NCBI GenBank assembly: GCA_000002445.1
Contig: CP000067.1
Coordinates: 768,001-832,000, forward strand
Direction of reading: 5' to 3'
From: Trypanosoma brucei
Taxonomy: Eukaryota
DNA length: 64,000 bases
Shown here: in pieces, positions 30,557 to 64,000 of the stretch
How the letters are laid out: each line of letters begins with the position of its first letter
Numbering within the stretch: the stretch's first letter is position 1
Position numbers and translations under genes: made by a program
The notes under the pieces: model-generated
Database searches by the model: none
Seen by the model: the letters and a program-made list of their open reading frames with translations, nothing else
Told to the model about the DNA's origin: nothing

Positions 30557-33500
30557 ATGTTCACACGCGCTCTCAGTAATGCCGCGCGTGTCGTGGCGGT
30601 CGCTGCACGGCAAGGTTTCTCACATAGTCTGACTGTGAGCAGTGCTTCTCTTCAGTTTCAACTGAGAGCCCGCGCAGACATCAGAAGGAGGTACCGTAGC
30701 CGTGAAGGGAACCCACAACTCGGCAATAGCGGCGGCGCTGATGTGGGTAGCATGCCGCTCAACTTCGCTGTCATACCAGTCTCGCGAATAAATATGCGTA
30801 TGGAGTCGCAGCTTGAGTCATTCCTGAAGAAGCAGGAGAAAGAAACACTGGAGCTGGGCACGTCAGCAGAGTCTCCTAAGATACGCCTACTGAACGTGCC
30901 CCGAACAACATTGAAGCGCGCCGTGTTGGACTTCAACGTCCGCGGTCAACAAGTGCGTGCAGTCGGTCAGTCAAGGCGAGGGAAGGTGGCAAAGGCGTTG
31001 TGCTGCATGCACGCCGCGATGCTCATCGATCACTTCTCAATCGATGGCGTCGGGTGCCACGACATGCCTCTGCCGCTGGAAGAAGAGGGCGTGTCGTCCG
31101 TCCCATCAAATGCCGCGCAGACCCCACACCACAAGCACGCACAGGGCTCGCCACTTTCTACCACGTTAAAATTACCGCCGCCATGGGCACCGGGCATGCA
31201 GTGGGAAAGGTATGTGAGTGATTGCGAGAATTACATTCGACGCAGGGAACAGCAGGAGCGAACAGACGCATACGTACAATTGCGCGTCCCACGGAGTGGG
31301 AACCCCCTTGTCGACCGCGCGGCTGACATGACAAAGGGTGAGAAGAACATTAATCACCTGGCTTTACAGAGATTGAACAATGAGATACGAAACGCAACGA
31401 AGGATATTCATATAACTCGGGTGTCACGACGTATCTTTGTCGCAACGCTTCTCCTGGATGATACGTCGCAACTAAGTGCCACGGGCGTCGCAACATCCCT
31501 GAAAGAGGCCAAACAACGGTGTGCGATGCATGCCTTGAACATTCTCAAACTCGTAAAAGATCAGCGGTTGGCTTCTTCCCCTCTAGCTTCGGTGTGTCGC
31601 GAGGGCTCCTCCACGAGCGCCATCTCCTCGAGCCTCAGCCCGCGATACTCAAAGATGTTAGATTTTTTTACACTTCTTTGTGGCGTAAAGCCCAAACCGA
31701 GCTTTACAAGGGACGGAAGAGGCTACAAGTGTGAGTTGCTACTGGATGATGTGACCAGTACCGGCCGGGGAGTCAATCGATTCGAGGCTGAACGTGATGC
31801 AATCGAACATGCACTAAGTGAGATGGAGCTGTATGACGAACGACTGCAAGCAATTAATAGTATCATCTCTCGTTACCCAAAAATACAGCCGCAGTGCGTT
31901 CCCTCGGCAAAACTTCCAGAAAGCCTGAGGAACGCCATCCATGCGTTGGTGCAGCGGGTCCACAAGGAACTCCACCTTGCAGATGACGGGACCACACTAA
32001 CCGGGAGCAAGGCCTCTTCCAGTAAAGATGAGAACAAAAGTGATGATACAGATGATGTGGTAGACGCGGAGACGCGCGCCACAATCAATGCACTACAAGA
32101 AATAAGTCGTGACGAAGCCTACGCGAATCGATTGCGGGACCGGTTGTGCACCTTGCGAGCCGATCCAAAGTACCTTGAGCGGTACCATGCACGGCGGTCA
32201 TCGCTCTCAATTAATGCCGTGTCGCAGAGCATCTTAAATGAGCTCCAACAGAACCGCGTCGTCGTAGTGTGTGGTACCACAGGCTGCGGGAAGACGACAC
32301 AAGTGCCACAATATATTCTTGATGCAGAAATAATGGCTGGTCGCGGCGACCAGTGTTGCATCGTCGTTACGCAACCGCGGCGATTGAGTGCATTTAGTGT
32401 TGCGGAACGAATCGCCAGTGAGCGCCTGTCAGCCGTGGGTGGCGACGTTGGATACGCCGTGCGATTGGACGCACGTCCTGGCCGTCACGTTACGCTATGC
32501 ACAACAGGTGTTTTGCTGCAGATGTTGGTTGGCATGCCATCGCTTGATGCGGTAAGTCACTTAGTCATTGATGAAGTGCATGAACGCGACATTAATTGTG
32601 ACGTGCTCCTCGCTCTAGTTAAAGATCTCATGGAAAGTGGGGGGAACCCACGCCTGAAGGTTGTTCTCATGAGCGCGACAATGCAGTCTGATATGTTCGC
32701 ATCTTACTTTGGCAGGGCGCCTGTGATCAGTGTGGAAGGCGCCACATACCCGGTGGAAGTGCGGTACCTTGATGATGTGGCTGCCCTTCTCCAGAAACAA
32801 ACCAACCCCAGAAATGCCTACTACAGTACCATGTTTGACTCTCTAACTGCGGCTCGGGGGGCCGGTGAAGTCGGAAGAAGAGGAAAGGGGGCGGCCAACA
32901 GAGGCAGATCGGGTTTTGGCGCAAAGAAGCAGTTGCTCAGTTCTCCACTGAAAACAGACTATAGCCTCATTGCGCAGCTTGTTCGCCGAAGCGTCGAAGT
33001 GGACCTCAACAACGACGTTTTCGGTAAGTCTGTTCTTGTCTTCCTTCCCGGCTGGAAGGAGCTAGTGGCGGCAAAACAAGCCATCGAGGGTCTTGGGGAC
33101 GGCCAACGGTACCATATAATACTTCTCCATTCATGTGTTGATGCGGCGAAGCAACGCGAATGCTTTGCGCCAGCGCCCGTAGGAAAGGTAAAGGTGGTTC
33201 TTGCCACCAACATTGCCGAGAGTGGCATCACAATTGATGATGCAGCAGTTGTTATCGATACTGGACTGATTAAACAAACCACGTGGGTCTCGCGTGTCTC
33301 CGGGCTCCAGCAGCAGGGAAGGGAGCTTGGCATCCTTGCAGCACCCATGTCAACAACATACGCCACGCAGCTGTCGCTGCGGTATGCAAGTCAGGCGAAC
33401 TGCACTCAGAGAAAGGGACGGGCGGGGCGGACACAGGGAGGAGTTTGCTACCGGCTGTTCGTGCGTGACGTATGGGATGTGCTACCGGCTTTCCAAGAGG

Positions 33501-34879
33501 CAGAAATTCATCGTGTGCCTCTGACGCAAGTGTTGCTTAAACTCCTAGCTCTTGGTCACGACAGGCCGAAGGAAAAACTTCGCACGTTTATTGAGCCTCC
33601 ATCCGAGAAAAATGTGGAGGACTCCATGCGCCAGCTGCAGAGCCTCGGTGCGGTGTCTGCCGACGAACGGCTCACGCCCCTTGGCCTCTACTTGTCACGA
33701 CTTCCCTGCGAACCGACGGTAGCGAAGATGATTATGATGGGCGCTGTCCTCCGCTGCCTTGACTCTGCATTGACGATGGCTGCAACGGGCGACGTGAATC
33801 CGTTCCTTTCAAGCCGTGATATGTCCTTTGAGGTGAGGGTCCGGCGGCGTGTGTTTGCAATGGGGTCGCAGAGCGACCATATTAGCGTATTGAATGCGTA
33901 TAATGCGTACAGTGCACGGCGTGCCGACGCCGGCTTCGCCAAGGAAAACTTTCTGAGCGCAAACAATATGAGGCTTATCTCCCGGTATAAGCAACAGTAT
34001 CGCGATATTCTTCAGCGTTCAGGATTTATTCGCGACACAGAACTAAACTCTCCACAGTTCACAAGCGAATGTGGGAGTTTTGGTGGAGATGGTTCTCACG
34101 TTTTGTACTTCGACGATGGACCGCTTTCAGCTGACGCCACAGATGTGTCGCTAGTGAAGGCTTGTCTGTGTGCAGCACTTTTTCCGAATGTGGCTGTTCT
34201 TGACCCGACACCGCTGCTCCAGCAACAGGGGAAAAAGGCGAAAACGTTGGTGATGCGCACTTCAACACGCTCCGCTATTTCACCATCAAAGGATAGTGCG
34301 TGTCGCCGTACAGGCTCACCGCAAGCACATACCTGTTCCACACCACAAGATTTATTCAGCCCGCACAACGATGAGCACATGGATCTTCCCTCTATGTTGT
34401 ATATTTATCAGGGTATTTTTTCGTTGAAGGAGTCTCGAGAAGAGTTTCTAACCCAAGTTTCCTCCGTTAGCCTTTGGGCGCTGCTTCTCTTTGGTGTTGG
34501 AGAGGCTGACATGCACTACGACAACCAGGTGCAACTGTGCGTCGTGGGAAACTGGATTGGCATTCATATGGACTCCGAGTCATACAAGGCCCTTGTTGCG
34601 ATTCGTACCATTTTGCACGCGTGTGTGTGGCGCAAGTACAAGCACCCGGAGGATCCCGGAAATAATCGAGCGCTCGAGGAACTCCACCGCATTTGCAAGG
34701 GTATTTTGAAGTCACCACCGAACGATAAGGAACAATACCTGAATAATCTCGTGGACACGGGAAGGATTTTCTCTCCAATGGAAGTGCAGCAGCTAACCGA
34801 TGATGTCAAAATGGAGAGACTCAATGGGGAACAAGATGACGACGGCAACAGAGACGTATGGGAGTTACACGAGGTGTGA
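30557..34879 (+). CDS. DEAH/RHA-family (DHX9-like) ATP-dependent RNA helicase with two N-terminal dsRBD-like domains and a mitochondrial-presequence-like N-terminus (REH2-like architecture)
   Basis: ATG at 30557. Helicase motifs are read directly: motif I VVVVCGTTGCGKTTQVPQYIL; Ia VVTQPRRLSAFSVAERIA; II HLVIDEVHERD; III SATMQSD; IV-like LVFLPGWKEL; V VVLATNIAESGITIDDAAVVIDTGL; VI QRKGRAGRTQGGVCYRLF. The dsRBD-like segments are ...VGQSRRGKVAKALCCMHAAMLIDHF and ...SATGVATSLKEAKQRCAMHALNILKLV. The N-terminus MFTRALSNAARVVAVAARQGFSHSLTV is Arg/Ala/Ser-rich with no acidic residues. Confidence 0.9.
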   Translation: MFTRALSNAARVVAVAARQGFSHSLTVSSASLQFQLRARADIRRRYRSREGNPQLGNSGGADVGSMPLNFAVIPVSRINMRMESQLESFLKKQEKETLELGTSAESPKIRLLNVPRTTLKRAVLDFNVRGQQVRAVGQSRRGKVAKALCCMHAAMLIDHFSIDGVGCHDMPLPLEEEGVSSVPSNAAQTPHHKHAQGSPLSTTLKLPPPWAPGMQWERYVSDCENYIRRREQQERTDAYVQLRVPRSGNPLVDRAADMTKGEKNINHLALQRLNNEIRNATKDIHITRVSRRIFVATLLLDDTSQLSATGVATSLKEAKQRCAMHALNILKLVKDQRLASSPLASVCREGSSTSAISSSLSPRYSKMLDFFTLLCGVKPKPSFTRDGRGYKCELLLDDVTSTGRGVNRFEAERDAIEHALSEMELYDERLQAINSIISRYPKIQPQCVPSAKLPESLRNAIHALVQRVHKELHLADDGTTLTGSKASSSKDENKSDDTDDVVDAETRATINALQEISRDEAYANRLRDRLCTLRADPKYLERYHARRSSLSINAVSQSILNELQQNRVVVVCGTTGCGKTTQVPQYILDAEIMAGRGDQCCIVVTQPRRLSAFSVAERIASERLSAVGGDVGYAVRLDARPGRHVTLCTTGVLLQMLVGMPSLDAVSHLVIDEVHERDINCDVLLALVKDLMESGGNPRLKVVLMSATMQSDMFASYFGRAPVISVEGATYPVEVRYLDDVAALLQKQTNPRNAYYSTMFDSLTAARGAGEVGRRGKGAANRGRSGFGAKKQLLSSPLKTDYSLIAQLVRRSVEVDLNNDVFGKSVLVFLPGWKELVAAKQAIEGLGDGQRYHIILLHSCVDAAKQRECFAPAPVGKVKVVLATNIAESGITIDDAAVVIDTGLIKQTTWVSRVSGLQQQGRELGILAAPMSTTYATQLSLRYASQANCTQRKGRAGRTQGGVCYRLFVRDVWDVLPAFQEAEIHRVPLTQVLLKLLALGHDRPKEKLRTFIEPPSEKNVEDSMRQLQSLGAVSADERLTPLGLYLSRLPCEPTVAKMIMMGAVLRCLDSALTMAATGDVNPFLSSRDMSFEVRVRRRVFAMGSQSDHISVLNAYNAYSARRADAGFAKENFLSANNMRLISRYKQQYRDILQRSGFIRDTELNSPQFTSECGSFGGDGSHVLYFDDGPLSADATDVSLVKACLCAALFPNVAVLDPTPLLQQQGKKAKTLVMRTSTRSAISPSKDSACRRTGSPQAHTCSTPQDLFSPHNDEHMDLPSMLYIYQGIFSLKESREEFLTQVSSVSLWALLLFGVGEADMHYDNQVQLCVVGNWIGIHMDSESYKALVAIRTILHACVWRKYKHPEDPGNNRALEELHRICKGILKSPPNDKEQYLNNLVDTGRIFSPMEVQQLTDDVKMERLNGEQDDDGNRDVWELHEV

Positions 34880-37638: not shown

Positions 37639-38459
37639 ATATGAGGGTGAGGGATGGACAATGAAGGAGGAGAGAAGAAGAGGAAGGAGAAGGAGAAAAC
37701 ACAATGGAGAAATGGTGGCGTGTGTGCTTGTGGGTGTGCAAAGAGGTAGAAAAAAAAAGAAAAAGAATGAGCAAAAAGAATGGTTAAGGAACGAAAAGAA
37801 AGAAAGAAAGCAGAGCGAGCGCAGCTGCAGGTGTGGAGGCATCGCAGCACATCTCCCCCATCTTTCAAAGTATTCTATTTTCGTTTCTTCGTTTGTTCTG
37901 TTAGGTATTTTTGCCAGGGATTCACGTCAGTAATTGAGTTGGTGGTGGCGTGAATATCTTTTTTTGGAGTCCACCTCAATGCGGGTTCCATATTGCGTTG
38001 TTGTTGTTTCGTTTGCTTCCGTAGCTTCTTCGAGGAAACATGTATACACGTATGTGTATATGTATACGTATATTACTTTGAATGAAAGCACTCTTGCGTA
38101 AAGTGGCCACAAAGGGGATGAAGGGAATTTCTTTTTTTGAACAGTTCGTTGTGTTGGTTGCTTTTTTCGGTCTTTTTTTTTTCCTTATGGTTTTCGGCAA
38201 GGCTGCAACAACAGAACCTTCTTCAGTGAAGTTAAGGGTTTATAGAAATACATGTTTTCGTACACGTGTGTGTGTGTGTGTATCTGTGTTGTGCTGTGTG
38301 TTGTTTCGCTTGTCATTTTCTTCCATTTCTTCTTTTCCTTTCCTGCTTTTCTTTGCTTTATGCTGTTCTCTTTTTGGTACGAACAGGCTGCCATTATCGG
38401 TGTTTTGGTACAGTTGTGCGTATACATGCATATACATATTTATATATTTATATTTATAC

Positions 38460-38463
<4 letters not shown>

Positions 38464-38505
<42 letters not shown>

Positions 38506-38539
38506 GTGCGAAGAGGGGAGGGGGAGGGAGAGGGAGAGA
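38464..38539. repeat. (TA)~19 microsatellite followed by a GGGA/GAGG purine repeat
   Basis: atatatatatatatatatatatatatatatatatatat, then gaggggagggggagggagagggagaga, inside the 4.4-kb ORF-free tract. Confidence 0.9.
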
Positions 38540-38610
38540 TCCTTATTTTAACAAACAAAAAAAAAAGAAGTAAAGGGAGGAAGTGGATCATTTTCCAGAG
38601 GAATGCGTTC

Positions 38611-38634
38611 CCCTTCCCTCCCTCCCTCCCTCCC
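38611..38634. repeat. (CCCT)n-type pyrimidine repeat
   Basis: cccttccctccctccctccctccc, read directly. Confidence 0.85.
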
Positions 38635-40185
38635 GAGACAGGAGTCGAAAAATGATATAAAATAGTTGAGTGGTTAATTTTATTGCTGCCGAAATCAACT
38701 CCGTGAGATGCACAATTAGAGCGCAACTAGTTTGAGTTTGTGGTGAATGTAAAGGAGAGCAAAACAGAAAGAAAGTGGGAATAGTTTTTGTTTAACAAAG
38801 AAAGAAAAGAAGAAGATGAAAAGTAGTAATTTCTTTTTTTTTTTTTTTACTACTGGACAAAATAAGCAACTGTTCTACTCGTGTGTCCTCACATGACTGT
38901 GGATGATCCAAACTTGACTCCCCCCTTTCCCCTTTTTCCTTTTGGTGATGCAACGCGTTGCATTCCGGGGCTAATAACTTTAACCCTTGTCTTCGTTGTT
39001 GCAGCAACAACAAAAATAAGGAAAAGTTAATGTTGGAACGTGCACATAAACGCACGTTGCTTACATACTTGCATACGTTCATGTTTTTTTTTCCTCTTTT
39101 TTTTTTTGCTTTCTTCGCTTTTTTGTCATTTCTGGACTCAACTGATACGCACAGAAACGATTAAGGACAAGTAGAGTTCATAAAATGAATGTCATTAGCA
39201 CAGTTTGAGTGAATATGAAAAGTTACGCGTGTGCTTAAAAAAAAAAAGAGAGAGAGAAATAAGAGTGACTGCGGCATCACACAGAGAATTGTTTGCGTGC
39301 CATGAACTGACTGTGAAAATGCTGAATTTAAGCACAAAAAACCAAAACCACCGATTTGTTGGCGTACGTGCTTGAGTTTGTGTCCAAAATGAATCAACAG
39401 TTTGAGAGGCAAAATTATGTTATGACAGCCGCCGTGCACACGACCGGCGCATCCCACAGTAGCGGTGGACGAATAGGTGGACAAAAGAGAACAGAGAAAG
39501 TAAAATAGGATAGAATGGTTAAGGCAATTAGCTCCATAAGAAATGGGATCGTATCAATTGACACATTCCCTCTTTCTGTACCGTAGGTCCGATTCAACAC
39601 TTTCAATTTCTTCTATTTTTCTCCTCCAGATCATATTTGCCTTTCAGTGCGTGGTGCGCGAATTGGCACGCGAGAGGCGGAACATTTCTTGAAGCTGTGC
39701 GTTTTCTGGTGCCGTCGCTGTGATCGTGCGCCTTTTAGCGCACCACAGTAATGACATGAGAAGGCAAGAGGATAAGGCAGATTCGGGAAGATCCTTCTTT
39801 TATTTGTTTGTTTGTTTGCTGCACCCACCTGATCGACCATTACCTCTAATTGATTCGATCATTCCTTGGAATTACCTTTACTTTACAGTTTGGATGCGTT
39901 ACTTCGTTCATGCAGGCGAGTGAATTGTGTCGGTTCTCCGTATTTGCTGCTCCTCTCGTAAAATGTCCTGAGCTGCGGGATGGTTGAAAATAATGCGGGC
40001 TCGTCACAGACAAAATGGATGATGGGGGGAGGAGGAGGGGTGCGGGACAGTGAAATTCAGCGGTCAAACGAAGCGAAATATCTCACTTCTCTTTTGTTTT
40101 ATTGTGGACATTCAACCGGCCGGCTGTTACGCGTTTCTCACTCCAAACGGAAGGACCCATGCAGGCCCACCCATAATATGTCTTA

Positions 40186-40225
40186 GTATATATATATATA
40201 TATGTATATACATACACATATTATT
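40186..40225. repeat. (TA)n microsatellite with TA/CA-rich flank
   Basis: gtatatatatatatatatgtatatacatacacatattatt, inside the ORF-free tract. Confidence 0.8.
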
Positions 40226-42075
40226 TTTTTTCTTCCCCCCCCTCCAGAAAATGCAGGGAAATCACGTGTTACGCCATGAACGGTGTTCATTCGTCCACCA
40301 ACTCTGGAGGAAGCAAATGATGACAACAAGATGTAATTTTATTTTGTCTGTGCACGCACAAACGGTTCTTGAGAAGGGGAGGCAGAGGAATTTCCGTCTG
40401 TGCTGCAACTCTATTTTTTATTCAATTCAAGTCTTCAATCCCATCCGCACCCGTTGCGAGCTGTTAATGTGATGCAAAATGCGTACCGGTGCCTTGTAAT
40501 AATGGATATATCAGCACTGGGGTGGACAAATGCAAAAAAAACGGGTGGATAAATTAGACGAAATGCATAACTTCACGTATTATTATTGCTGTTATTTGGC
40601 AGGCATAACATATAACTGGTAACCAAAGGTGCGAGAGGATTGTAACGGTGATGGGTGCAGTTTCGGTATGTAAGTTGCACCTTTGGAGACATCAGTATGA
40701 GGGAAAGAAGTAAGGAAGAAGAAGAGGAGAATTGTTGCACGTATCTTTGTACTGTCAGTGGTTCTGCTAAAGTAAGTGTTAACTTACTTCTTCGATCATG
40801 TAATGCCTTGTCCCGATTTCTGTACGTGGTGGAAGTGTGTGTGAGCAGGGTGCTTGGTTTAATCTGCTTATTTGGTCAATGCATACACATGTCCACTTGC
40901 TCACGGATTATGTGCGATAACAAGTTGTGCATGGGGCATTCACCCTTTGCGTGTATGTTGTCGGGTCGCACCTTTCCTTTGTTTCCGAGGGATGCGTTTG
41001 ATTAAATGCTCTTCTGTTCGGGCGCTCATTCGGTGGAACTCAACAAAGAGGATGAAGAGGAACGAACGGACCAGAAGGGAGGAGAGAAAAGGCCGCGGTT
41101 TCTCGATATATCGTTCCTCCTCCGTGGAGTGGCGACTTGCGCCCATATTTTTTTTTTCACTTGTTTATTTGTTTTCAGTCCACGATTGAGATACGACGCT
41201 CGTCACGGACGAACTTATTCAATTCCCCATCATCAGGACTGGAATGTGGCGAAGAAGAAAGAGGAGGGGAGGAGGAGGCAGAGCCGACGTAAAGGGGATC
41301 AGTTGGTGAAGGGGAGAATTCCTTAGTTATTAAAAATGACAACACAAACGGGGGGAAAAAATCATCCCCCTGTCTTTTTTTTTCGGCTACCTGTGCGTCT
41401 CAGACTGTTGCCATGGTCAAACGATGACATGAATCACTCTCACTGGGTCACCACGGGAAGAAACTTACATTTACACACACAGAGATGCTTACTAACCGCT
41501 GTCATGCACGAAAACTACAACACAAACCAAAAGAAAATGACGGGCATCGCGCGTACGTGTTCTTCGGCGTGTCGGCATGGAAGTAATAATGAAAAAAAAA
41601 AACACGTCCACCCTTTGACTTTCTTTCTTTTTACGACCAACTCTTCTCCCTGTTTCCGCCATCTGCGAACCGCGCGCCGGCACGCGTGCTCACCTGAACG
41701 CACTATCTACTGGTTGGAATACGAACGGATATCAGACTTACCAATCGAGGAACAAGAGAAAAGAGGAGCAACTACGTTTGTAGCATATACGCTTTTTTAA
41801 AAAACGCAAGAGAAAAAAGGAAAAGCAGGCAGCATAATTGTGAAGTTTGGACCAGCTCTTGGATCGCTCGCGTCGGTGAACCCTGCAACACATCCCAAAC
41901 ACAAGGTTAACTGACGCGCCATCAATATACCACCAGCAACAAAGGAGCTGTGAAACCTAGGGACTAAAGCAAAATAGAGAAAGGACTTGCGCATAATCAA
42001 GTCGGACCAAATATTTAACTAATAGGAGGCGTACTGAGAGCAGGCTGTATTAAGTGAAGGAAAGGTCGATCAAGC

Positions 42076-42522
42076 ATGGAAATCATTGATCGGCCCCTAA
42101 GTGAAATCATCAAGGAGCAAAACATTGCCCAGTCCCTGCGCCGCAACCGCCGAGGGGGGAAAGGCAACCAACAGCGACGGCCGAGAGGAGGAGCTCGGGG
42201 CGCCGTGACTGGTGGCAACCGTGGCGTGTCGAGACCCCGTCGTGGTTTGGGACGTGACCGCTTCAGAGAAGTGGACCGCCGTCGGCTCTTGTCACGGCGC
42301 CCTGATGGCCCCTTCCGCCGCTTCCGACCGTCATATGGCCGCGTATTGGAGAGGCGTCGTAATGCCGTGGATTACGGTGATGTGAGGTCGCGCCGCTCCG
42401 TGAAAAGCACCGATTATTTGCGTGAGCGCCGCCTCTCCGGTTCGGAACGCAACGAACGCCTCCGGTACCAGCGCCGTCGCGAAGAACTCTCCCGCGTCCG
42501 CTCCCGCTTCTCACGTGATTGA
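42076..42522 (+). CDS. Arginine-rich 148-aa protein with an N-terminal ALY/REF-type UAP56-binding-motif-like sequence and RGG-type repeats; no RRM
   Basis: ATG at 42076. The N-terminus MEIIDRPLSEIIKEQNIAQSLRRNRRGGKGNQQRRPRGGARGAVTGGNRG resembles the ALYREF N-terminus ([24 protein letters not shown]), which I recall from memory. The rest is an Arg-rich tract with RRR/RSR dipeptides. The sequence is non-repetitive at the DNA level. Confidence 0.5.
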   Translation: MEIIDRPLSEIIKEQNIAQSLRRNRRGGKGNQQRRPRGGARGAVTGGNRGVSRPRRGLGRDRFREVDRRRLLSRRPDGPFRRFRPSYGRVLERRRNAVDYGDVRSRRSVKSTDYLRERRLSGSERNERLRYQRRREELSRVRSRFSRD

Positions 42523-44040
42523 TAGGCCGGGCGCCCAATACGAGGGGGAGAGATGAACAGGAATTATTGAAGGTCAGGTGTTTGAGATGCGTGACTGAGG
42601 GAGAGGAAGCGAAAAAAGAAAAAAACCAAAAGGAAGGGGAACAATGAGTGAGAAGCACGGTTGGAAATGTAGAAAGGTTGCACTCAATAATAACGATAAA
42701 AAAGAAAATGGGGCGGCGAGGGGAGAAAGCAAAGAGGGAACGCAGCAAGTCGAACAGTTAAAGAAAGCAAGATGCAAGCCTACAAAACACTAGGAAGTGG
42801 AAAGGAGCCTGAGCGTTTCAACGCTTCATCAATGTCCCTCTTGTTTAAGGGTTGTTTGCCGTCACCAAATCCGTTGAGTCGAGTCCATTACCGGAGTTAG
42901 CCGCTTCAATGAAAATGACGAAGTTTTCCCGATGGAAAGTCAGTTGAAGGAAGGAGGGTAATATCGTGTAGCGATCTGTAGAGGAACGGAGAGGAGCGTT
43001 AGAAGCGGCGAGCTGAGAGACGAAAGAAATATGGCTGCTTGTAAACTTCTTTCTGCATTTGAACTGGAGCGGCGAAACCTGCCCACGAATGAAAAGATCA
43101 TCGCGAAAGAGAAAACCAACTTCACAGATTACCGGGAACTATAAACCAAGGACGCACACGAACATGTTGGTTACACATTATGTGGATTGTCACGACTTGA
43201 TTTGTTGGGTTCTTTTTCTGGTGTTGGTGTTGGTCGCGGTCATGAACGTATTGTTGCCCTTCTTCATGCGCGCAAAGGGGGGGGAGAAAAGTAGCAAAGG
43301 CATAAAATGAATAATTGATTGTTCAAATACAGTGTGCTAAGGCTAATACAACTAGAAAAGAACTAGGACAAGAAAAGGACGAAACATACGGGAAGAACTG
43401 ATAGTGAACGTTGTGAGGACTAAAAGATAGAAGGGGAGATGAACCTTGGGGATATGGTATACTCATATTTGTGCGGATGTATTTGTATTTGTTTTTACTA
43501 AGAGGAAATAAAGTGAACCAGCGACATGGTATGGTATGAACTGTTGGGTAAAAAAGAAAAAAAAGGACATTTCCACTAGCTGTAAAAGAAACGGAGAGAA
43601 GGTGAAATAGGGAAACAGAAAAAGAGGGAAATGAATTTGCTGCCTCCGTACAATGTTACACACTTCAAGGCAGCGGAATGACCCTTTAAATTTTTCATTT
43701 TCCCCATTAATCCCTTCGATATTATATTATGCGTGTCTCTCTCCCCTGCCTTCTGTTTTCTGTCTCCTTTTGTCTCCTTTTGTCATCCCTTAGCTGCCTG
43801 GAATGGGGATGTAGGAAGGCGAAAAAGAAAAAAAATACGTGTCTCTTTATTCCAACAGCAGTGCAGCGCGGGGGGTTGCAACATTGCATTTTTGTTTGGT
43901 TCTGTTTTTGCTCTTTTCTGTTTGTATTTGCTGGCGTTGTTAGTGTTGAAAACAAGAGAAAACAAAAAGAACGTGAGTATGTGCAATACAGGAACTGAAG
44001 TGAGTGGAACACCTACAAGAAACATAAAGGGGGGGTGCAC

Positions 44041-44412: not shown

Positions 44413-45759
44413 ATGCTGCGCCATACATGCAGGCGGTTGTTACTTAATGTATCGGGGGAGAGCCCGTCGTTCCGTGCAAAGCCCATACGGAATCTGCAGA
44501 TGGATGTGCAGATGAGCCCCTACAAGGAGCAATTCAAAGACTACTGGTCCACACCCGTGCCATGGGCAGATCGCGAGTACGGCGAGAAGCCAAAACTCGG
44601 GGCTCCCGTTCCCACGCGTCGGGCTGCAACGGCGGTTGTGATTGGAATGAACCGTCACGCCGACATGGCGAAGGTTGAACGCGGTGAGGACAATGATTAC
44701 AAGGTGCTCATGATGTATCGCGAAGGAAAAAGCCGCTTTGTGCGGGACCAGTTCATCCTACCGTCAATGCCAGTGAGTTTGGAGGATAGTTCGGAGGATT
44801 GGGAAAAGATTCTCCGCCGCCGCGGTGTGAAAACTCAGTGGACGGACCTGCATCACCGCCTCTGCGCGATGCGGGCGCTATTTGCACAAATGAATATTCT
44901 TCTCATTCCAAAGGAGGGGGGCGGGCTTGCGGAGGTTGAGGGACCGCCTGGACCCAAGAAGTGGCACTTGCTCGTCCATTCAAACCCCAAGGCAATGAAG
45001 AACCTGGTGGATGTTCTGGAGTTACCGATGGAAACGTGTTTGTCACAGCTGCTGCCGTTCCGCAGCATCACAACACCAACAACGGAAACCTTTCGTTTCT
45101 GCAATCTCAATTACCTGGTGCCCTTTGAGAAGGTACCGGACGTGCGATTTACTATTAGTACTCTGGGAGAGAAGCTTGTGTGGGTGTCACCGATGGAGGC
45201 CATGGCACGTTTTAACGCCGGTATCATGAACATGCCCACGCCCAGCCTTATTCTTCTGTCTGAGTTGAACAACGAGTGCCCCACCTTTGCGGATGTGATG
45301 AAGCGGAAGCCACACGACAGTTACCGCGATGTCCTCCCTGAGTTGTTTCGTCACAACCAAACAAAAGTCGCCACAATCCTTCTCCCTGGTGACCTTCAAC
45401 ACACCAGCACAACAGAAGAAGATAAGGCTCAACAATATGTCCGTCGGTTTGTGTATGAAAAGGATTACCCCTTCGGTGTGCGCGCGGTGTTTGAGGAACG
45501 GCCGGCGACGGTAGAGGAATCAGCGGGACCTTTAGAGCAGGAAATGCCCAAATTGTTGGAGGAGGCAAATGAAATGGATATGGTTTACGCCGAGGTGCCG
45601 TACCCAAAGAGGGAGAAGCGGCCGGAGGAAATCGGTCGTACAGCATTTGCCGTTCCAAATTACACTTTTCAAGAGGGAGTGGAGAACGCAGATGGCGTCA
45701 TCCCAGTGAAGAAGCGGAACATCGGAAGCGTGGGGGATTTGTACTCGCACACAAAATAA
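44413..45759 (+). CDS. hypothetical protein (448 aa) with a presequence-like N-terminus
   Basis: ATG at 44413, downstream of polypyrimidine tract 44041-44150. The N-terminus MLRHTCRRLLLNVSGESPSFRAKPIRNL is basic and amphipathic. I recognised no domain. Confidence 0.55.
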   Translation: MLRHTCRRLLLNVSGESPSFRAKPIRNLQMDVQMSPYKEQFKDYWSTPVPWADREYGEKPKLGAPVPTRRAATAVVIGMNRHADMAKVERGEDNDYKVLMMYREGKSRFVRDQFILPSMPVSLEDSSEDWEKILRRRGVKTQWTDLHHRLCAMRALFAQMNILLIPKEGGGLAEVEGPPGPKKWHLLVHSNPKAMKNLVDVLELPMETCLSQLLPFRSITTPTTETFRFCNLNYLVPFEKVPDVRFTISTLGEKLVWVSPMEAMARFNAGIMNMPTPSLILLSELNNECPTFADVMKRKPHDSYRDVLPELFRHNQTKVATILLPGDLQHTSTTEEDKAQQYVRRFVYEKDYPFGVRAVFEERPATVEESAGPLEQEMPKLLEEANEMDMVYAEVPYPKREKRPEEIGRTAFAVPNYTFQEGVENADGVIPVKKRNIGSVGDLYSHTK

Positions 45760-61751: not shown

Positions 61752-64000
61752 ATGAAACAAGGTAACGGGGCCACACACTCCATTCCCCACAATGTGCCCT
61801 TCCGACGCATTGTTATTCTTTCTGACTATGGATCACCTTGGCTCAACGCGGTAACGGCCGTAACATGCGCAACGCTGCCATGTCTTTCGGCACTCTCCAA
61901 TGGGTGGTGTGAGAAGCGTGGAAACGTTGTTGTTGCCAGTAAACTGGATAGCCCGCGCGTCCTCATTCCGGCCGAGGCAGGTGTTGCACCGGACGGCACC
62001 TCGTGCTCGTCACTTTCCTCGTTATCTGCAGTGTGTCGGGATTTAGCTGACGGCCGTAACATTGCCAGTCGTATCTTTTTTACCGCGGATGCGGCCAGCA
62101 ATCCGCGAGCGCAGACTTTTGCACCAAGCGTGGAAGATGACTTGTTTGTGTATGTGTCGGCGTGGAGTGGTGAAAAGGACGCCGCCCATCTTGCTCTTCG
62201 TTCCCTTTCCAACATGTTTGGTGCCACCAGCTTCGGCATTGGCGCATCGGGTGTCCTCACAGGACCGTGTGGCGTTCCTCGGCTTATTATTCTGGCAGAC
62301 GAATCCACACGAAACTCAGTCTGCGAAACTGCTCGGCATCTCAGCAATTGGTGCGTCCTCTCGTGCATTGTGCCAAGTTTCGCTCCCCCGGCCTTCAACC
62401 ACCAGCTTGCTGCTTCGGTCGTGCGGGAATGCGATGTCGTATGCGGGGTTCTGGAGTGTGTTGCGCTCGGCGTGGCTCTGGGAACGGTAAAGCGACTTCC
62501 GTTCGGTTTTATGGACCCCGTATGTGTTATGCCCCTTGATGCTGCTATCAGTACTGCTCTGATTGCATTCCTGCAGCGTTTGAAAGGGGGTCCTGCAGCA
62601 GTCTGTGGGGGTACGAGCGCCACTATTATTATAGGCTCTCCCAGTGACAGCGCTTTCGTGTGGGGCATGTTTGCTCAATACCTGATGGATTATTATGGTC
62701 GTGTGGGTCTTCTCGCACTGAAGGAATCCCAGTTACGTTGGCTGTTTGATACCTCGCCAGCGCTGCAGCTGAATGCAGACTTTATGAATTGGGTGAACTA
62801 TGGCACATCGACAATGATGCCTTTTCGGTGCTACTATGATAATGCCGCGGCGCGGCGCCGGAAGCAGTTGATGGAGCACTATCCCCATTCAAATGTAGCT
62901 AGGAAGGTTTGTGGGACATTAACGAACATTGACACGCGCATCCACAATATGGTAAAGTTGACTCAACACTCTGAGCCAACAGGGCAACATGATGGCGAGC
63001 GGGTGAACAAGCAGGGGAAGCCCAACACGGCGGGGTTTTACAGTGACTTGCTTCGGGCTGTAGAACAAGATGCCGCGTTACGGCCTCTCTACCCGTACAT
63101 CTCGTTGAGTTGCATAAGGTGGGATGTTTTTGTGAAGGTTATTGCCCAATCCGTGCTGGAGCATGCGGCACGCCAGATCGCAGGGCATCCAACTGTGGTC
63201 CCTCCGCCTCTTCCTTTGTATCATAACGACATCATATTTTACGGCCCGCAGCGGGCTCCGCGGAACTGTCTCCTCACTCGATTCTTCCCAGAAAGCGTTC
63301 GGTGGGCACAGCGCTCAGGTTTACGGCCGAACGGGGTGCTTGTAGCGGCAGAACCCGGGCTCACAGAAGAGTCATTGGCGTGTATACTTCAGCGCCCAAG
63401 TATAATTCAGGTGGTTAAGAAAACTGCAAAAGCAGAGGGCGTAACGGAGGAAGATGTCTTGAGGCGGGCGACAGCAATCTTGCGCGGTATGGGTGATAAT
63501 CTGAATCAGCTCAATGTCCGCGTCTTCGGCCTTATGGTGCGGAAGGCGCTGTTCAGGCTCTTCGACAGAGTGAGCCTGAACGCCTCCGCCTTCGAACGGC
63601 TCCATGCTGCAACTACGCAACCGAGGACCCATGTCATGTTGCTACCAGCACACAGGTCATATATAGATTTCATCATAATGACCTATTTGCTCCTGGTGAT
63701 GGGTCTGACCCTACCGCACGTATGTGCAGGTGATGATTTCCTTCGAATGGGCCAGATAACTAAATTGATGCGTGGTAGCGGCGCCTTTTTCATACGGCGG
63801 ACATTCCGCGACGATCCCCTGTACACTGCACTCTTCAAAGAGTACATTCACAACCTTGTCCTTCGAAAGCAAATGATCGAATTCTTCATTGAAGGAACTC
63901 GAAGCCGCACGGGCAAAACGCAACGCCCCATGCTCGGGGTCCTAAAGTTCATTGCCGACACCTTGGTTAACGCACAAGAGGCTATCGATGACGTTTGCAT
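61752..64000 (+). CDS. GPAT/DHAPAT-family acyltransferase (dihydroxyacetone-phosphate / glycerol-3-phosphate acyltransferase) with a long N-terminal extension; 3'-partial, continuing beyond the window
   Basis: The plus frame is open from ATG 61752 to the window end, which I checked codon by codon by eye. It is absent from the ORF track, presumably because no stop occurs in the window. Acyltransferase motifs near the window end: motif I HRSYIDFII (HxxxxD), motif II GAFFIRRTF (FxxR), motif III FFIEGTRSRTGK (FxEGTRS), motif IV PMLGVLKF. The minus-strand ORF 61826..62668 overlaps it and is judged spurious. Confidence 0.8.
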   Translation, partial: MKQGNGATHSIPHNVPFRRIVILSDYGSPWLNAVTAVTCATLPCLSALSNGWCEKRGNVVVASKLDSPRVLIPAEAGVAPDGTSCSSLSSLSAVCRDLADGRNIASRIFFTADAASNPRAQTFAPSVEDDLFVYVSAWSGEKDAAHLALRSLSNMFGATSFGIGASGVLTGPCGVPRLIILADESTRNSVCETARHLSNWCVLSCIVPSFAPPAFNHQLAASVVRECDVVCGVLECVALGVALGTVKRLPFGFMDPVCVMPLDAAISTALIAFLQRLKGGPAAVCGGTSATIIIGSPSDSAFVWGMFAQYLMDYYGRVGLLALKESQLRWLFDTSPALQLNADFMNWVNYGTSTMMPFRCYYDNAAARRRKQLMEHYPHSNVARKVCGTLTNIDTRIHNMVKLTQHSEPTGQHDGERVNKQGKPNTAGFYSDLLRAVEQDAALRPLYPYISLSCIRWDVFVKVIAQSVLEHAARQIAGHPTVVPPPLPLYHNDIIFYGPQRAPRNCLLTRFFPESVRWAQRSGLRPNGVLVAAEPGLTEESLACILQRPSIIQVVKKTAKAEGVTEEDVLRRATAILRGMGDNLNQLNVRVFGLMVRKALFRLFDRVSLNASAFERLHAATTQPRTHVMLLPAHRSYIDFIIMTYLLLVMGLTLPHVCAGDDFLRMGQITKLMRGSGAFFIRRTFRDDPLYTALFKEYIHNLVLRKQMIEFFIEGTRSRTGKTQRPMLGVLKFIADTLVNAQEAIDDVC

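What the first reader, a model, noticed from the sequence alone, without database searches (positions are those of the whole stretch)
42076..42522. Arginine-rich 148-aa protein whose N-terminus resembles an ALY/REF-type UAP56(Sub2)-binding motif: candidate mRNA-export adaptor in a lineage where none is clearly known
The N-terminus MEIIDRPLSEIIKEQN is followed by RRNRRGGKGNQQRRPRGGARGAVTGGNRG. This has the same layout as the N-terminal UAP56-binding motif (L-D-D-I-I-K) plus RGG box of ALYREF/Yra1/UIF/CHTOP; here it is L-S-E-I-I-K, two conservative differences. The protein has no RRM, which is UIF/CHTOP-like rather than ALY-like. To my knowledge kinetoplastids retain Sub2/UAP56 but lack an identifiable ALY/Yra1 orthologue, so a small UBM-plus-RGG protein would be a plausible missing adaptor. 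The ORF is non-repetitive at the DNA level and sits in a normal position in the transcription unit. Both points argue against it being a low-complexity artefact.
Basis: partly seen in the sequence, partly recalled or inferred. Interest (0 to 1): 0.6.

Follow-up and report, generated by a model that had tools for sequence, protein, structure and literature searches.

The report
Trypanosome HYP: Sub2 partner with ALY-like motif
This small arginine-rich gene is Trypanosoma brucei "HYP" (Tb927.4.3060), already published as a nuclear partner of the mRNA-export helicase Sub2 and the export receptor Mex67b but still listed as "unknown function"; its invariant N-terminus significantly resembles the helicase-binding peptide of the ALY/REF export adaptor, which would explain how it binds Sub2.

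Summary
The ORF at 42076..42522 (+) is real and reads as described. It is Tb927.4.3060 on T. brucei TREU927 chromosome 4, the protein called TbHYP/TcHYP. Published work shows HYP is nuclear and co-purifies with Sub2 in T. cruzi. In T. brucei bloodstream forms it co-purifies, with Sub2 and PABP2, with Mex67b but not Mex67. RNAi in procyclic cells gave no bulk poly(A) retention. The link to Sub2 and the export machinery is therefore already known. Trypanosomes also have a second published UBM-bearing Sub2 partner, TbFOP.

The motif reading is not in the main text of the papers I read. Residues 4-13 (I-D-R-P-L-S-E-I-I-K) are essentially invariant in all 15 family members, out to the parabodonid Cryptobia. 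They align in register with the ALYREF N-terminal UAP56-binding motif (hhalign P about 1e-4; 0 of 800 column shuffles reach the score). The rest of the protein is a disordered Arg-rich linker followed by a confident basic C-terminal helix. There is no RRM, no C-UBM, no SARNP-type motif and no Pfam domain.

It is not an ALY/REF family member. It resembles single-UBM, RRM-less adaptors such as UIF and LUZP4. Direct motif-mediated binding to Sub2 is inferred, not shown.

The parts
42076..42522 (+). Complete ORF of Tb927.4.3060 (TbHYP), 148 aa plus stop
   Evidence: It is an exact match to XP_844456.1/AAZ10897.1/Q583Y3. The gene ID was assigned from accession order anchored on Tb927.4.3020 (helicase), Tb927.4.3040 (ESP11) and Tb927.4.3070.
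42085..42114 (+). Residues 4-13, I-D-R-P-L-S-E-I-I-K: ALY-type N-UBM-like core, the proposed Sub2-binding peptide
   Evidence: D5, P7, L8, S9, E10, I12 and K13 are invariant in 15 kinetoplastid sequences. L.[DE][IV]I[KG] is at residue 8 in 15 of 15. hhalign aligns HYP 2-18 with ALYREF 3-19 (P=6.7e-5). 0 of 800 column shuffles reach the score. The ungapped profile score is 26.1 against 13.8+-2.9, P about 0.002.
42076..42141 (+). Residues 1-22, the full conserved N-terminal block (MEIIDRPLSEIIKEQxIxxxLR). It extends beyond the ALY UBM core, and the predicted helix 8-25 starts at Leu8
   Evidence: Alignments A3 and A4. AlphaFold2 helix 8-25, pLDDT about 60.
42142..42354 (+). Residues 23-93, a variable Arg/Gly-rich disordered linker (RGG/RG motifs), the presumed RNA-binding region
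   Evidence: Poorly conserved in sequence and length but always R/G-rich. pLDDT is 44-51 with no secondary structure. Composition. RNA binding is inferred by analogy with ALYREF and LUZP4.
42355..42423 (+). Residues 94-116, a conserved middle block (RR.AVD.GD.R..R[SG]VK[ST]....R) of unknown partner
   Evidence: R94, V109, K110 and R116 are invariant out to Cryptobia. No match in Pfam or in PDB sequences.
42439..42510 (+). Residues 122-145, a conserved basic C-terminal helix ([ED]R[NM][DE]R.R..RRRE.L.R.RSRF), a second interaction module (candidates: Mex67b-Mtr2 or RNA)
   Evidence: AlphaFold2 helix 122-145, pLDDT 82-86. R125, R130, R134 and R142 are invariant. It is not a C-UBM and not a SARNP UCM by consensus.

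Best explanation
The ORF encodes HYP (Tb927.4.3060), a kinetoplastid-specific, intrinsically disordered, very basic nuclear mRNP protein.

Shown in the literature: it co-purifies with the DEAD-box helicase Sub2/UAP56 and with the export-receptor paralogue Mex67b.

Inferred here: its invariant N-terminal peptide (residues about 4-13, forming the start of a short helix) is a UAP56-binding motif of the ALYREF N-UBM type. It would dock on the RecA2 lobe of Sub2, as the ALYREF N-UBM does on human UAP56. The Arg/Gly-rich linker would bind RNA non-specifically. The conserved basic C-terminal helix would be a second contact, for Mex67b-Mtr2 or RNA.

HYP would then act as a minimal, RRM-less, single-UBM co-adaptor, with a UIF/LUZP4-like layout. 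It would keep Sub2 on mRNPs and couple them to the Mex67b branch of export, partly redundantly with the CHTOP-like TbFOP. This would happen in an organism that lacks THO and ALY/Yra1.
For: Identity: exact match to XP_844456.1. Accession order with three literature anchors gives Tb927.4.3060, which Inoue et al. 2022 name TbHYP.

Published interactions: TcHYP is nuclear. Its GFP pull-out contains SUB2, Mex67b, FOP, PABP1 and hnRNPH, and HYP appears in the API5 and FOP isolates. The authors state that TcHYP interacts with TcSub2. In T. brucei bloodstream forms Mex67b, but not Mex67, co-purifies with Sub2, PABP2 and HYP.

Motif: it is invariant across 15 members including Cryptobia borreli, while the rest of the protein diverges to 32-66% identity. 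The syntenic neighbouring gene stays 66% identical. hhalign against 15 ALYREF N-termini gives the same register, P=6.7e-5. Empirical controls: 0 of 800 column shuffles reach the score, and 40 of 20,000 reach the ungapped score.

Layout: the motif sits at the extreme N-terminus and is followed by an R/G-rich stretch, as in ALYREF. The chain is disordered with two helices. LUZP4 is a precedent: it was found through its UBM and has a UBM, an Arg-rich RNA-binding region and a basic C-terminal helix, without an RRM.

Context: Sub2 is present, while Yra1/ALYREF and THO are absent in T. brucei.
Against: No experiment addresses the motif, so direct binding is an inference. Arg-rich proteins co-purify promiscuously, and the HYP isolate also holds fibrillarin and NOP56.

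The match is short, and two positions that are invariant in the 15 animal-type ALYREF N-termini I collected differ (Ser to Pro7, Asp to Ser9). The T. brucei peptide scores only 3.3 bits against a metazoan UBM HMM. phmmer against PDB sequences finds nothing.

TbHYP RNAi gave no bulk poly(A) retention. That experiment used procyclic cells, where Mex67b itself can be deleted without poly(A) accumulation, so it is not decisive.

I could not check whether TbSub2 keeps the N-UBM-binding residues (human R276, A302, E309). I never saw the T. cruzi sequence itself; orthology rests on the paper's statement and on synteny in its relatives T. conorhini and T. rangeli.
Confidence: 0.6

Rival explanations
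1. HYP is a sticky Arg-rich mRNP or nuclear protein whose association with Sub2 is indirect, bridged by RNA or by FOP/API5. The invariant N-terminal peptide would serve a different partner, for example Mex67b-Mtr2, an importin, a PRMT or a nuclear export signal receptor. Its likeness to the ALY UBM would be coincidental.
For: The pull-outs were not reported as RNase-treated in the text I read, and they contain many RNA-binding proteins. The one-sided HMM score is weak. The conserved block (residues 1-22) is longer than the ALY UBM core, and P7 and S9 differ from positions that are invariant in the 15 animal-type ALYREF N-termini I collected. Mex67b is a consistent partner in both species.
Against: The profile-profile match is in register and beats all 800 composition-matched shuffles. 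The same position and layout (N-terminal motif followed by an R/G-rich stretch) are found in ALYREF. Sub2 is recovered with HYP in T. cruzi and alongside HYP in T. brucei Mex67b isolates.
Confidence: 0.25
2. HYP is mainly a nucleolar or ribosome-biogenesis Arg-rich factor. This is the alternative the first reader named as a refutation.
For: The TcHYP isolate includes fibrillarin, NOP56, ribosomal S27a and eEF1-beta. TbSub2 knockdown raised some rRNA species. The composition (30% Arg, pI 12) is typical of nucleolar proteins.
Against: TcHYP is reported as nuclear like TcSub2, not as nucleolar. In T. brucei, HYP co-purifies with Mex67b together with Sub2 and PABP2, whereas the ribosome-biogenesis interactome belongs to the nucleolar paralogue Mex67L. 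Nucleolar proteins are common contaminants of Arg-rich baits (general knowledge).
Confidence: 0.07
3. The C-terminal conserved helix is a SARNP/Tho1-type UAP56-clamping motif (UCM) or a CHTOP/UIF-type 'NERFG' element. HYP would then be a natural N-UBM plus UCM fusion that clamps Sub2 on RNA.
For: N-UBM and UCM bind adjacent sites on RecA2 and act synergistically, and an artificial UCM-N-UBM fusion is the most active form. HYP has ERNER.R and a terminal R.RSRFS, and Cryptobia ends in GRRFGRK.
Against: The published consensus R/KxxxRAxRFG is absent from all 15 members. The spacing is off by one residue in RARSRFS. The terminal RF[SG] is lost in the Leishmaniinae-like sequences. The position matching the UCM Phe is not conserved in ERNERxR. 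There is no Pfam FoP_duplication or FYTT hit at E<=10.
Confidence: 0.08

Closest known systems
ALYREF / Yra1 (ALY/REF, THOC4) N-terminal UAP56-binding motif (N-UBM)
   Same: Both have a short helical peptide at the extreme N-terminus with the pattern hydrophobic-D-x-x-L-x-[DE]-[IV]-I-K. HYP reads I4-D-R-P-L-S-E-I-I-K13 and ALYREF reads M5-D-M-S-L-D-D-I-I-K14. In both it is followed by an R/G-rich RNA-binding stretch, and both proteins partner Sub2/UAP56.
   Different: HYP has no RRM, no C-terminal UBM (LDxxLDxY) and no WxHD motif. Pro7 and Ser9 replace the Ser and Asp that are invariant in the 15 animal-type ALYREF N-termini I collected. The conserved block runs on to residue 22. No homology is detectable outside the motif, and the family is confined to Kinetoplastea.
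UIF (FYTTD1) and LUZP4: single-UBM, RRM-less mRNA export adaptors
   Same: The architecture matches: one ALY-type UBM near the N-terminus, an Arg-rich RNA-binding region and, in LUZP4, a basic C-terminal helix. They bind UAP56 and the export receptor and are redundant with other adaptors, so single knock-downs are mild.
   Different: There is no sequence homology: no Pfam FYTT hit and no leucine zipper. HYP is much smaller (148 aa). Enhancement of receptor RNA binding and complementation of adaptor loss have not been tested for HYP.
TbFOP/TcFOP (Tb927.6.1470), the kinetoplastid CHTOP-like FoP-domain protein
   Same: It is also kinetoplastid-specific, nuclear and Arg-rich. It co-purifies with Sub2 and with HYP, and its RNAi gives no bulk poly(A) retention. 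It is a likely redundant partner.
   Different: It is a different gene on chromosome 6. It has a recognisable FoP domain with C-UBM-type LDxxLDxY-like motifs separated by RGG, and deleting its C-terminal UBM halves Sub2 recovery. HYP has no FoP domain and carries the N-UBM type of motif.
SARNP/Tho1 (UAP56-clamping motifs)
   Same: It is a small, largely disordered UAP56 cofactor that acts through short basic helical peptides bound to RecA2.
   Different: HYP has no SAP domain and no match to the UCM consensus in any member.

Membership tests
ALY/REF (ALYREF/Yra1/THOC4) | N-terminal UAP56-binding motif (..DMSLDDIIK.. type) | tested here: inconclusive
   The match is in register and significant against controls (hhalign P=6.7e-5; 0 of 800 shuffles; P about 0.002). 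However, 2 positions that are invariant in the 15 animal-type ALYREF N-termini I collected differ, and the single-sequence HMM score is 3.3 bits. Binding has not been tested.
ALY/REF (ALYREF/Yra1/THOC4) | Central RRM domain | tested here: not met
   There is no Pfam hit at E<=10 in any of 15 members. AlphaFold2 shows no globular fold. No RRM-bearing relative was found in 1.84 billion representatives or in the 5.8 billion-sequence index.
ALY/REF (ALYREF/Yra1/THOC4) | C-terminal UBM (LDxxLDxY) | tested here: not met
   The regular expression matches none of the 15 members. The C-terminus is a basic helix.
ALY/REF (ALYREF/Yra1/THOC4) | RG/RGG-rich regions that bind RNA and the export receptor | tested here: met
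   The composition criterion is met: 29.7% Arg, 2 RGG and 5 RG in T. brucei, and up to 5 RGG and 13 RG in orthologues. RNA and receptor binding are not tested directly, although HYP co-purifies with Mex67b.
Functional class: UBM-bearing mRNA export adaptors (ALYREF, UIF, LUZP4, CHTOP, POLDIP3) | Physical association with UAP56/Sub2 | not testable with these tools
   This is met according to published experiments, which I did not test: SUB2 is in the TcHYP-GFP isolate, the authors state a direct interaction, and Sub2 and HYP are found together in TbMex67b isolates.
Functional class: UBM-bearing mRNA export adaptors (ALYREF, UIF, LUZP4, CHTOP, POLDIP3) | Association with the export receptor (NXF1/Mex67) and stimulation of its RNA binding | not testable with these tools
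   Association with Mex67b is published. Stimulation of RNA binding has never been tested.
Functional class: UBM-bearing mRNA export adaptors (ALYREF, UIF, LUZP4, CHTOP, POLDIP3) | Depletion, alone or combined, causes nuclear poly(A)+ RNA retention | not testable with these tools
   Published single RNAi in procyclic cells shows no retention. Bloodstream-form depletion and a double knock-down with TbFOP are not reported in the papers I read.
UIF/FYTTD1 (Pfam FYTT) and CHTOP (Pfam FoP_duplication) | Match to the family HMM | tested here: not met
   0 Pfam families at E<=10 for all 15 members.
SARNP/Tho1 | SAP domain and UCM repeats (R/KxxxRAxRFG) | tested here: not met
   No Pfam SAP hit. The UCM consensus is absent from all members.

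The most novel reading that the evidence does not exclude
HYP is not a lineage-specific invention. It would be the reduced kinetoplastid descendant of the ancestral ALY/REF adaptor, keeping only the N-UBM and the adjoining RGG region and having lost the RRM and the C-UBM. [quoted passage not shown] Trypanosomes would have a minimal 'Sub2-HYP-Mex67b' transcription-export unit, which becomes essential in bloodstream forms where Mex67b is essential.
Probability: 0.2. Interest if true: 0.7.

Novelty: new member of a known kind. Interest (0 to 1): 0.45.

Why it matters
Trypanosomes keep Sub2 and Mex67 but lack THO and ALY/Yra1, so how Sub2 is coupled to mRNPs and to the export receptor is an open question. 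HYP keeps turning up with Sub2 and Mex67b in two species, yet it is still described as a protein of unknown function.

Recognising an invariant ALY-type UBM at its N-terminus turns that association into a precise, cheap test: three point mutations, or one 25-residue peptide against recombinant Sub2. It also suggests that the N-UBM site on the helicase is used outside opisthokonts and plants, and in the absence of THO.

Finally, it explains why the published procyclic RNAi may have been uninformative, and it points to bloodstream forms, where Mex67b is essential, as the place to look for a phenotype.

Tried and rejected
1. TbFOP identity. I first suspected the ORF was the published TbFOP. It is not: TbFOP is Tb927.6.1470 on chromosome 6.

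2. phmmer of the N-terminal 42 aa and the C-terminal 56 aa against all PDB chain sequences gave 0 hits at E<=10. The full-family profile against PDB gave only a spurious peroxiredoxin hit at E=0.37.

3. A metazoan ALYREF UBM-core HMM against the single T. brucei peptide scored 3.3 bits, which is not significant. Only the profile-profile tests that use the conservation in both families are significant.

4. The SARNP UCM / 'NERFG' idea for the C-terminal helix was rejected on consensus, spacing and lack of conservation. My recalled SARNP UCM repeats could not be verified, because only the SAP domain is in PDB sequences.

5. The search for an RRM-bearing bridge outside Kinetoplastea found none, either in the exhaustive profile search of 1.84 billion representatives or in the indexed profile search.

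7. The yeast Yra1 N-terminus could not be verified, because only its C-box is in the PDB (5SUP_G). It was not used as evidence.

8. The supplements of the two key papers are not held as text. I therefore could not check RNAi primers, HYP figures or the T. brucei mass-spectrometry tables.

9. The look-up of encoding contigs has no record for the exact T. brucei protein. Synteny was taken from orthologues instead.

Full report
OBSERVATION. The ORF at window 42076..42522 (+) runs from ATG to TGA and encodes 148 aa beginning MEIIDRPLSEIIKEQNIAQSLRRNRRGGKGNQQRRPRGGARG. Otherwise the description is accurate. The protein is 29.7% Arg with pI 12, and it has only 2 RGG and 5 RG in T. brucei. Tandem Repeats Finder reports a single 19-bp micro-repeat. 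The ORF is a GC island, 62.6% against 44-46% in the flanks, and its Arg codons are skewed to CGC/CGT (68% against 39% in neighbouring genes). It lies on the same strand as all surrounding genes. The overlapping antisense ORF (42263..42748) is low-complexity and simply mirrors the Arg codons.

IDENTITY. The protein is identical to T. brucei TREU927 XP_844456.1/AAZ10897.1/Q583Y3, on a contig of 1,590,432 bp. The GenBank and RefSeq accessions of the flanking genes run in gene order. XP_844452 is the DEAH helicase with one dsRBD (window 30557..34879), which the literature names Tb927.4.3020. AAZ10895 is ESP11, which is Tb927.4.3040. XP_844457 is a 448-aa protein with a basic N-terminus that looks like a mitochondrial presequence by eye, consistent with 'uncharacterized mitochondrial' Tb927.4.3070. 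AAZ10897 is therefore Tb927.4.3060.

Inoue et al. 2022 (PMC8938319) give exactly this ID, written Tb927.04.3060, for TbHYP, the orthologue of TcHYP (TcCLB.506435.150, 'unknown, low complexity regions'). I first suspected TbFOP, but that is a different gene, Tb927.6.1470.

WHAT IS ALREADY PUBLISHED. TcHYP came out of the TcSub2/TceIF4AIII proteomics and is nuclear. Its GFP pull-out contains SUB2, Mex67b, FOP, PABP1, DED1 and hnRNPH, and also fibrillarin and NOP56. HYP is found in turn in the API5 and FOP isolates. The authors conclude that TcFOP, TcAPI5 and TcHYP interact directly with TcSub2. TbHYP RNAi, done in procyclic 29-13 cells, gave no nuclear poly(A) accumulation.

[quoted passage not shown] It notes that the same holds in T. 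cruzi. It describes Mex67b as essential in the blood stage. Procyclic cell lines with Mex67b deleted showed no poly(A) accumulation.

Kramer's 2021 review lists Sub2 as present and Yra1/ALYREF and all THO subunits as absent in T. brucei. However, the claim that no adaptor candidate is known is out of date. Neither paper's main text mentions a UBM in HYP, and their supplements were not available to me.

THE FAMILY. Direct and profile searches find only 15-17 proteins, all kinetoplastid. They come from Trypanosoma species, Phytomonas, unnamed Leishmaniinae-like assemblies and, most distantly, the parabodonid Cryptobia (Trypanoplasma) borreli. None has a Pfam domain, even at E<=10.

The gene order HYP, then a 421-448 aa gene, then a DUF167 gene, is kept in T. 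conorhini and in a divergent trypanosomatid. The neighbouring gene is 66% identical, whereas HYP members are only 32-66% identical to the T. brucei protein.

Against that background three blocks are conserved:
- Residues 1-22, with D5, P7, L8, S9, E10, I12, K13 and L21 invariant.
- A middle block around R94 to V109, K110 and R116.
- A C-terminal block with R125, R130, R134 and R142 invariant.

AlphaFold2 with the family alignment gives a disordered chain (mean pLDDT 56) with two helices. One spans 8-25 and starts at the conserved Leu8. The other is a confident helix at 122-145 (pLDDT 82-86). This is the signature of a disordered protein that works through short linear motifs.

IS THE N-TERMINUS A UBM? 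I verified my recalled human ALYREF sequence against PDB 7ZNK chain L, where it is 100% identical. I then used residues 1-45 to collect 17 ALYREF-type N-terminal fragments (79 aa or shorter; one is labelled 'THO complex subunit 4'), all reading D-M-S-L-D-[DE]-[IV]-[IV].

Profile-profile comparison of 10 HYP N-termini with 15 ALYREF N-termini aligns HYP 2-18 with ALYREF 3-19. Matched positions are I4/M5 (hydrophobic), D5/D6, L8/L9, E10/D11, I11/I12, I12/I13 and K13/K14.

Controls gave the following:
- hhalign scores 20.0, against 7.8-8.2 +- 2.0 for 800 column shuffles (maximum 16.9, none reaching 20) and 10.8 for the reversed profile.
- An independent ungapped BLOSUM profile score is 26.1 against 13.8 +- 2.9, reached by 40 of 20,000 shuffles.
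- The pattern occurs once in the window's 128,000 six-frame residues.

On the other side, the T. brucei peptive scores only 3.3 bits against a metazoan-only UBM HMM, and 0.17% of random 20-mers do as well. phmmer against PDB sequences finds nothing. Pro7 and Ser9 replace residues that are invariant in the 15 animal-type ALYREF N-termini I collected.

My reading is that the resemblance is real and unlikely to be chance. This holds especially given the independent facts that the peptide is invariant, sits at the extreme N-terminus, is followed by R/G-rich sequence, and belongs to a protein that co-purifies with Sub2. Sequence alone cannot prove the function.

HOW IT MOST LIKELY WORKS. Structural work on human TREX shows that the ALYREF N-UBM binds the RecA2 lobe of UAP56 (site R276/A302/E309). 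The C-UBM binds RecA1, and SARNP UCMs bind next to the N-UBM and act with it. By analogy, which is inference, I propose three things. HYP residues about 4-13 dock on Sub2 RecA2. The Arg-rich linker binds RNA. The basic C-terminal helix contacts Mex67b-Mtr2 or RNA. That makes HYP a minimal single-UBM, RRM-less co-adaptor.

The closest known layouts are UIF and LUZP4. LUZP4 was itself discovered by BLAST with the ALYREF UBM. It has a UBM, an Arg-rich RNA-binding region and a basic C-terminal helix.

The negative procyclic RNAi does not contradict this. CHTOP-type and ALY-type adaptors are redundant in humans, TbFOP is a plausible back-up, and the Mex67b branch is itself dispensable for bulk export in procyclic cells.

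RIVALS. The first rival is indirect, RNA-bridged association, with the motif serving another partner (about 0.25). The second is a nucleolar or ribosome-biogenesis role (about 0.07). It is supported only by fibrillarin and NOP56 in the isolate. It is contradicted by the reported nuclear localisation and by the fact that the ribosome-biogenesis interactome belongs to Mex67L, not Mex67b. The third is that the C-terminal helix is a SARNP-type UCM (about 0.08). I rejected it because the published consensus is absent from all members, the spacing is off, and the Phe is not conserved.

MEMBERSHIP AND NOVELTY. HYP is not an ALY/REF family member: the RRM and the C-UBM were tested and are absent. It is also not a member of the FYTT/UIF, FoP/CHTOP or SARNP families by HMM or consensus. 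It fits the functional class of UBM-bearing adaptors through its published interactions and through the motif analysed here.

The protein and its Sub2 and Mex67b association are already known. The motif-level mechanism is, as far as the searchable main texts show, new. I therefore rate it a new member of a known kind, of moderate interest. The most novel reading still open is that HYP is the reduced descendant of the ancestral ALY adaptor, rather than a convergent invention. I found no bridging sequence for or against this.

CAVEATS. I never saw the T. cruzi TcHYP sequence. Its orthology to Tb927.4.3060 rests on the paper's statement, on the reported features (low complexity, 108 alignable positions, a bodonid outgroup), and on synteny in T. 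conorhini. I could not obtain the TbSub2 sequence to check the receptor site. The TcSub2 paper reports only 69% similarity to human UAP56. The ALYREF profile rests on 15 closely similar animal-type ALYREF N-termini whose source organisms were not listed. The yeast Yra1 N-terminus could not be verified and was not used.

Noticed in passing
window 37639..42075: A 4.4-kb stretch between ESP11 (Tb927.4.3040) and HYP has no ORF of 200 aa or more. It contains low-complexity TA/pyrimidine-rich sequence, for example the ...IYIYIYIYIYI... ORFs around 38250-38550. The accession series implies that an annotated gene, AAZ10896 (presumably Tb927.4.3050), lies here, but I did not identify which small ORF it is. 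The upstream synteny also differs from the Leishmaniinae-like contig L001.
   Followed up: partly
window 44413..45759 (+): The downstream neighbour, a 448-aa protein (XP_844457, Tb927.4.3070), has a basic N-terminus that looks like a mitochondrial presequence and no Pfam domain. It is 66% identical to its counterpart in a divergent trypanosomatid. The literature lists it as an uncharacterised mitochondrial protein strongly enriched near RESC6 and RESC8 (RNA editing).
   Followed up: partly
window 42263..42748 (-): A 161-aa antisense ORF overlaps the HYP coding region. Its translation is low-complexity (G/R/S-rich, then F/S-rich). It looks like a by-product of the CGN-rich Arg codons on the sense strand, not a gene.
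   Followed up: partly
P0002 (T. congolense orthologue) and P0011: The T. congolense orthologue is annotated 'hypothetical protein, unlikely' although it belongs to this conserved family. P0011 carries a 73-aa F/L-rich N-terminal extension upstream of the conserved MEIIDRPLSE start, which is probably a mis-called start in a pyrimidine-rich upstream region.
   Followed up: no
window 61826..62668 (-): This is the only long ORF (280 aa) that is on the minus strand and does not overlap a plus-strand ORF, after about 61 kb of uniformly plus-strand genes. It could mark a convergent strand-switch or transcription-termination region near the window's end, or it could be spurious.
   Followed up: no
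window 30557..34879 (+): This is the DEAH/RHA helicase with a single dsRBD, Tb927.4.3020, the shorter paralogue of the RNA-editing helicase REH2. Its function is reported as undetermined.
   Followed up: no
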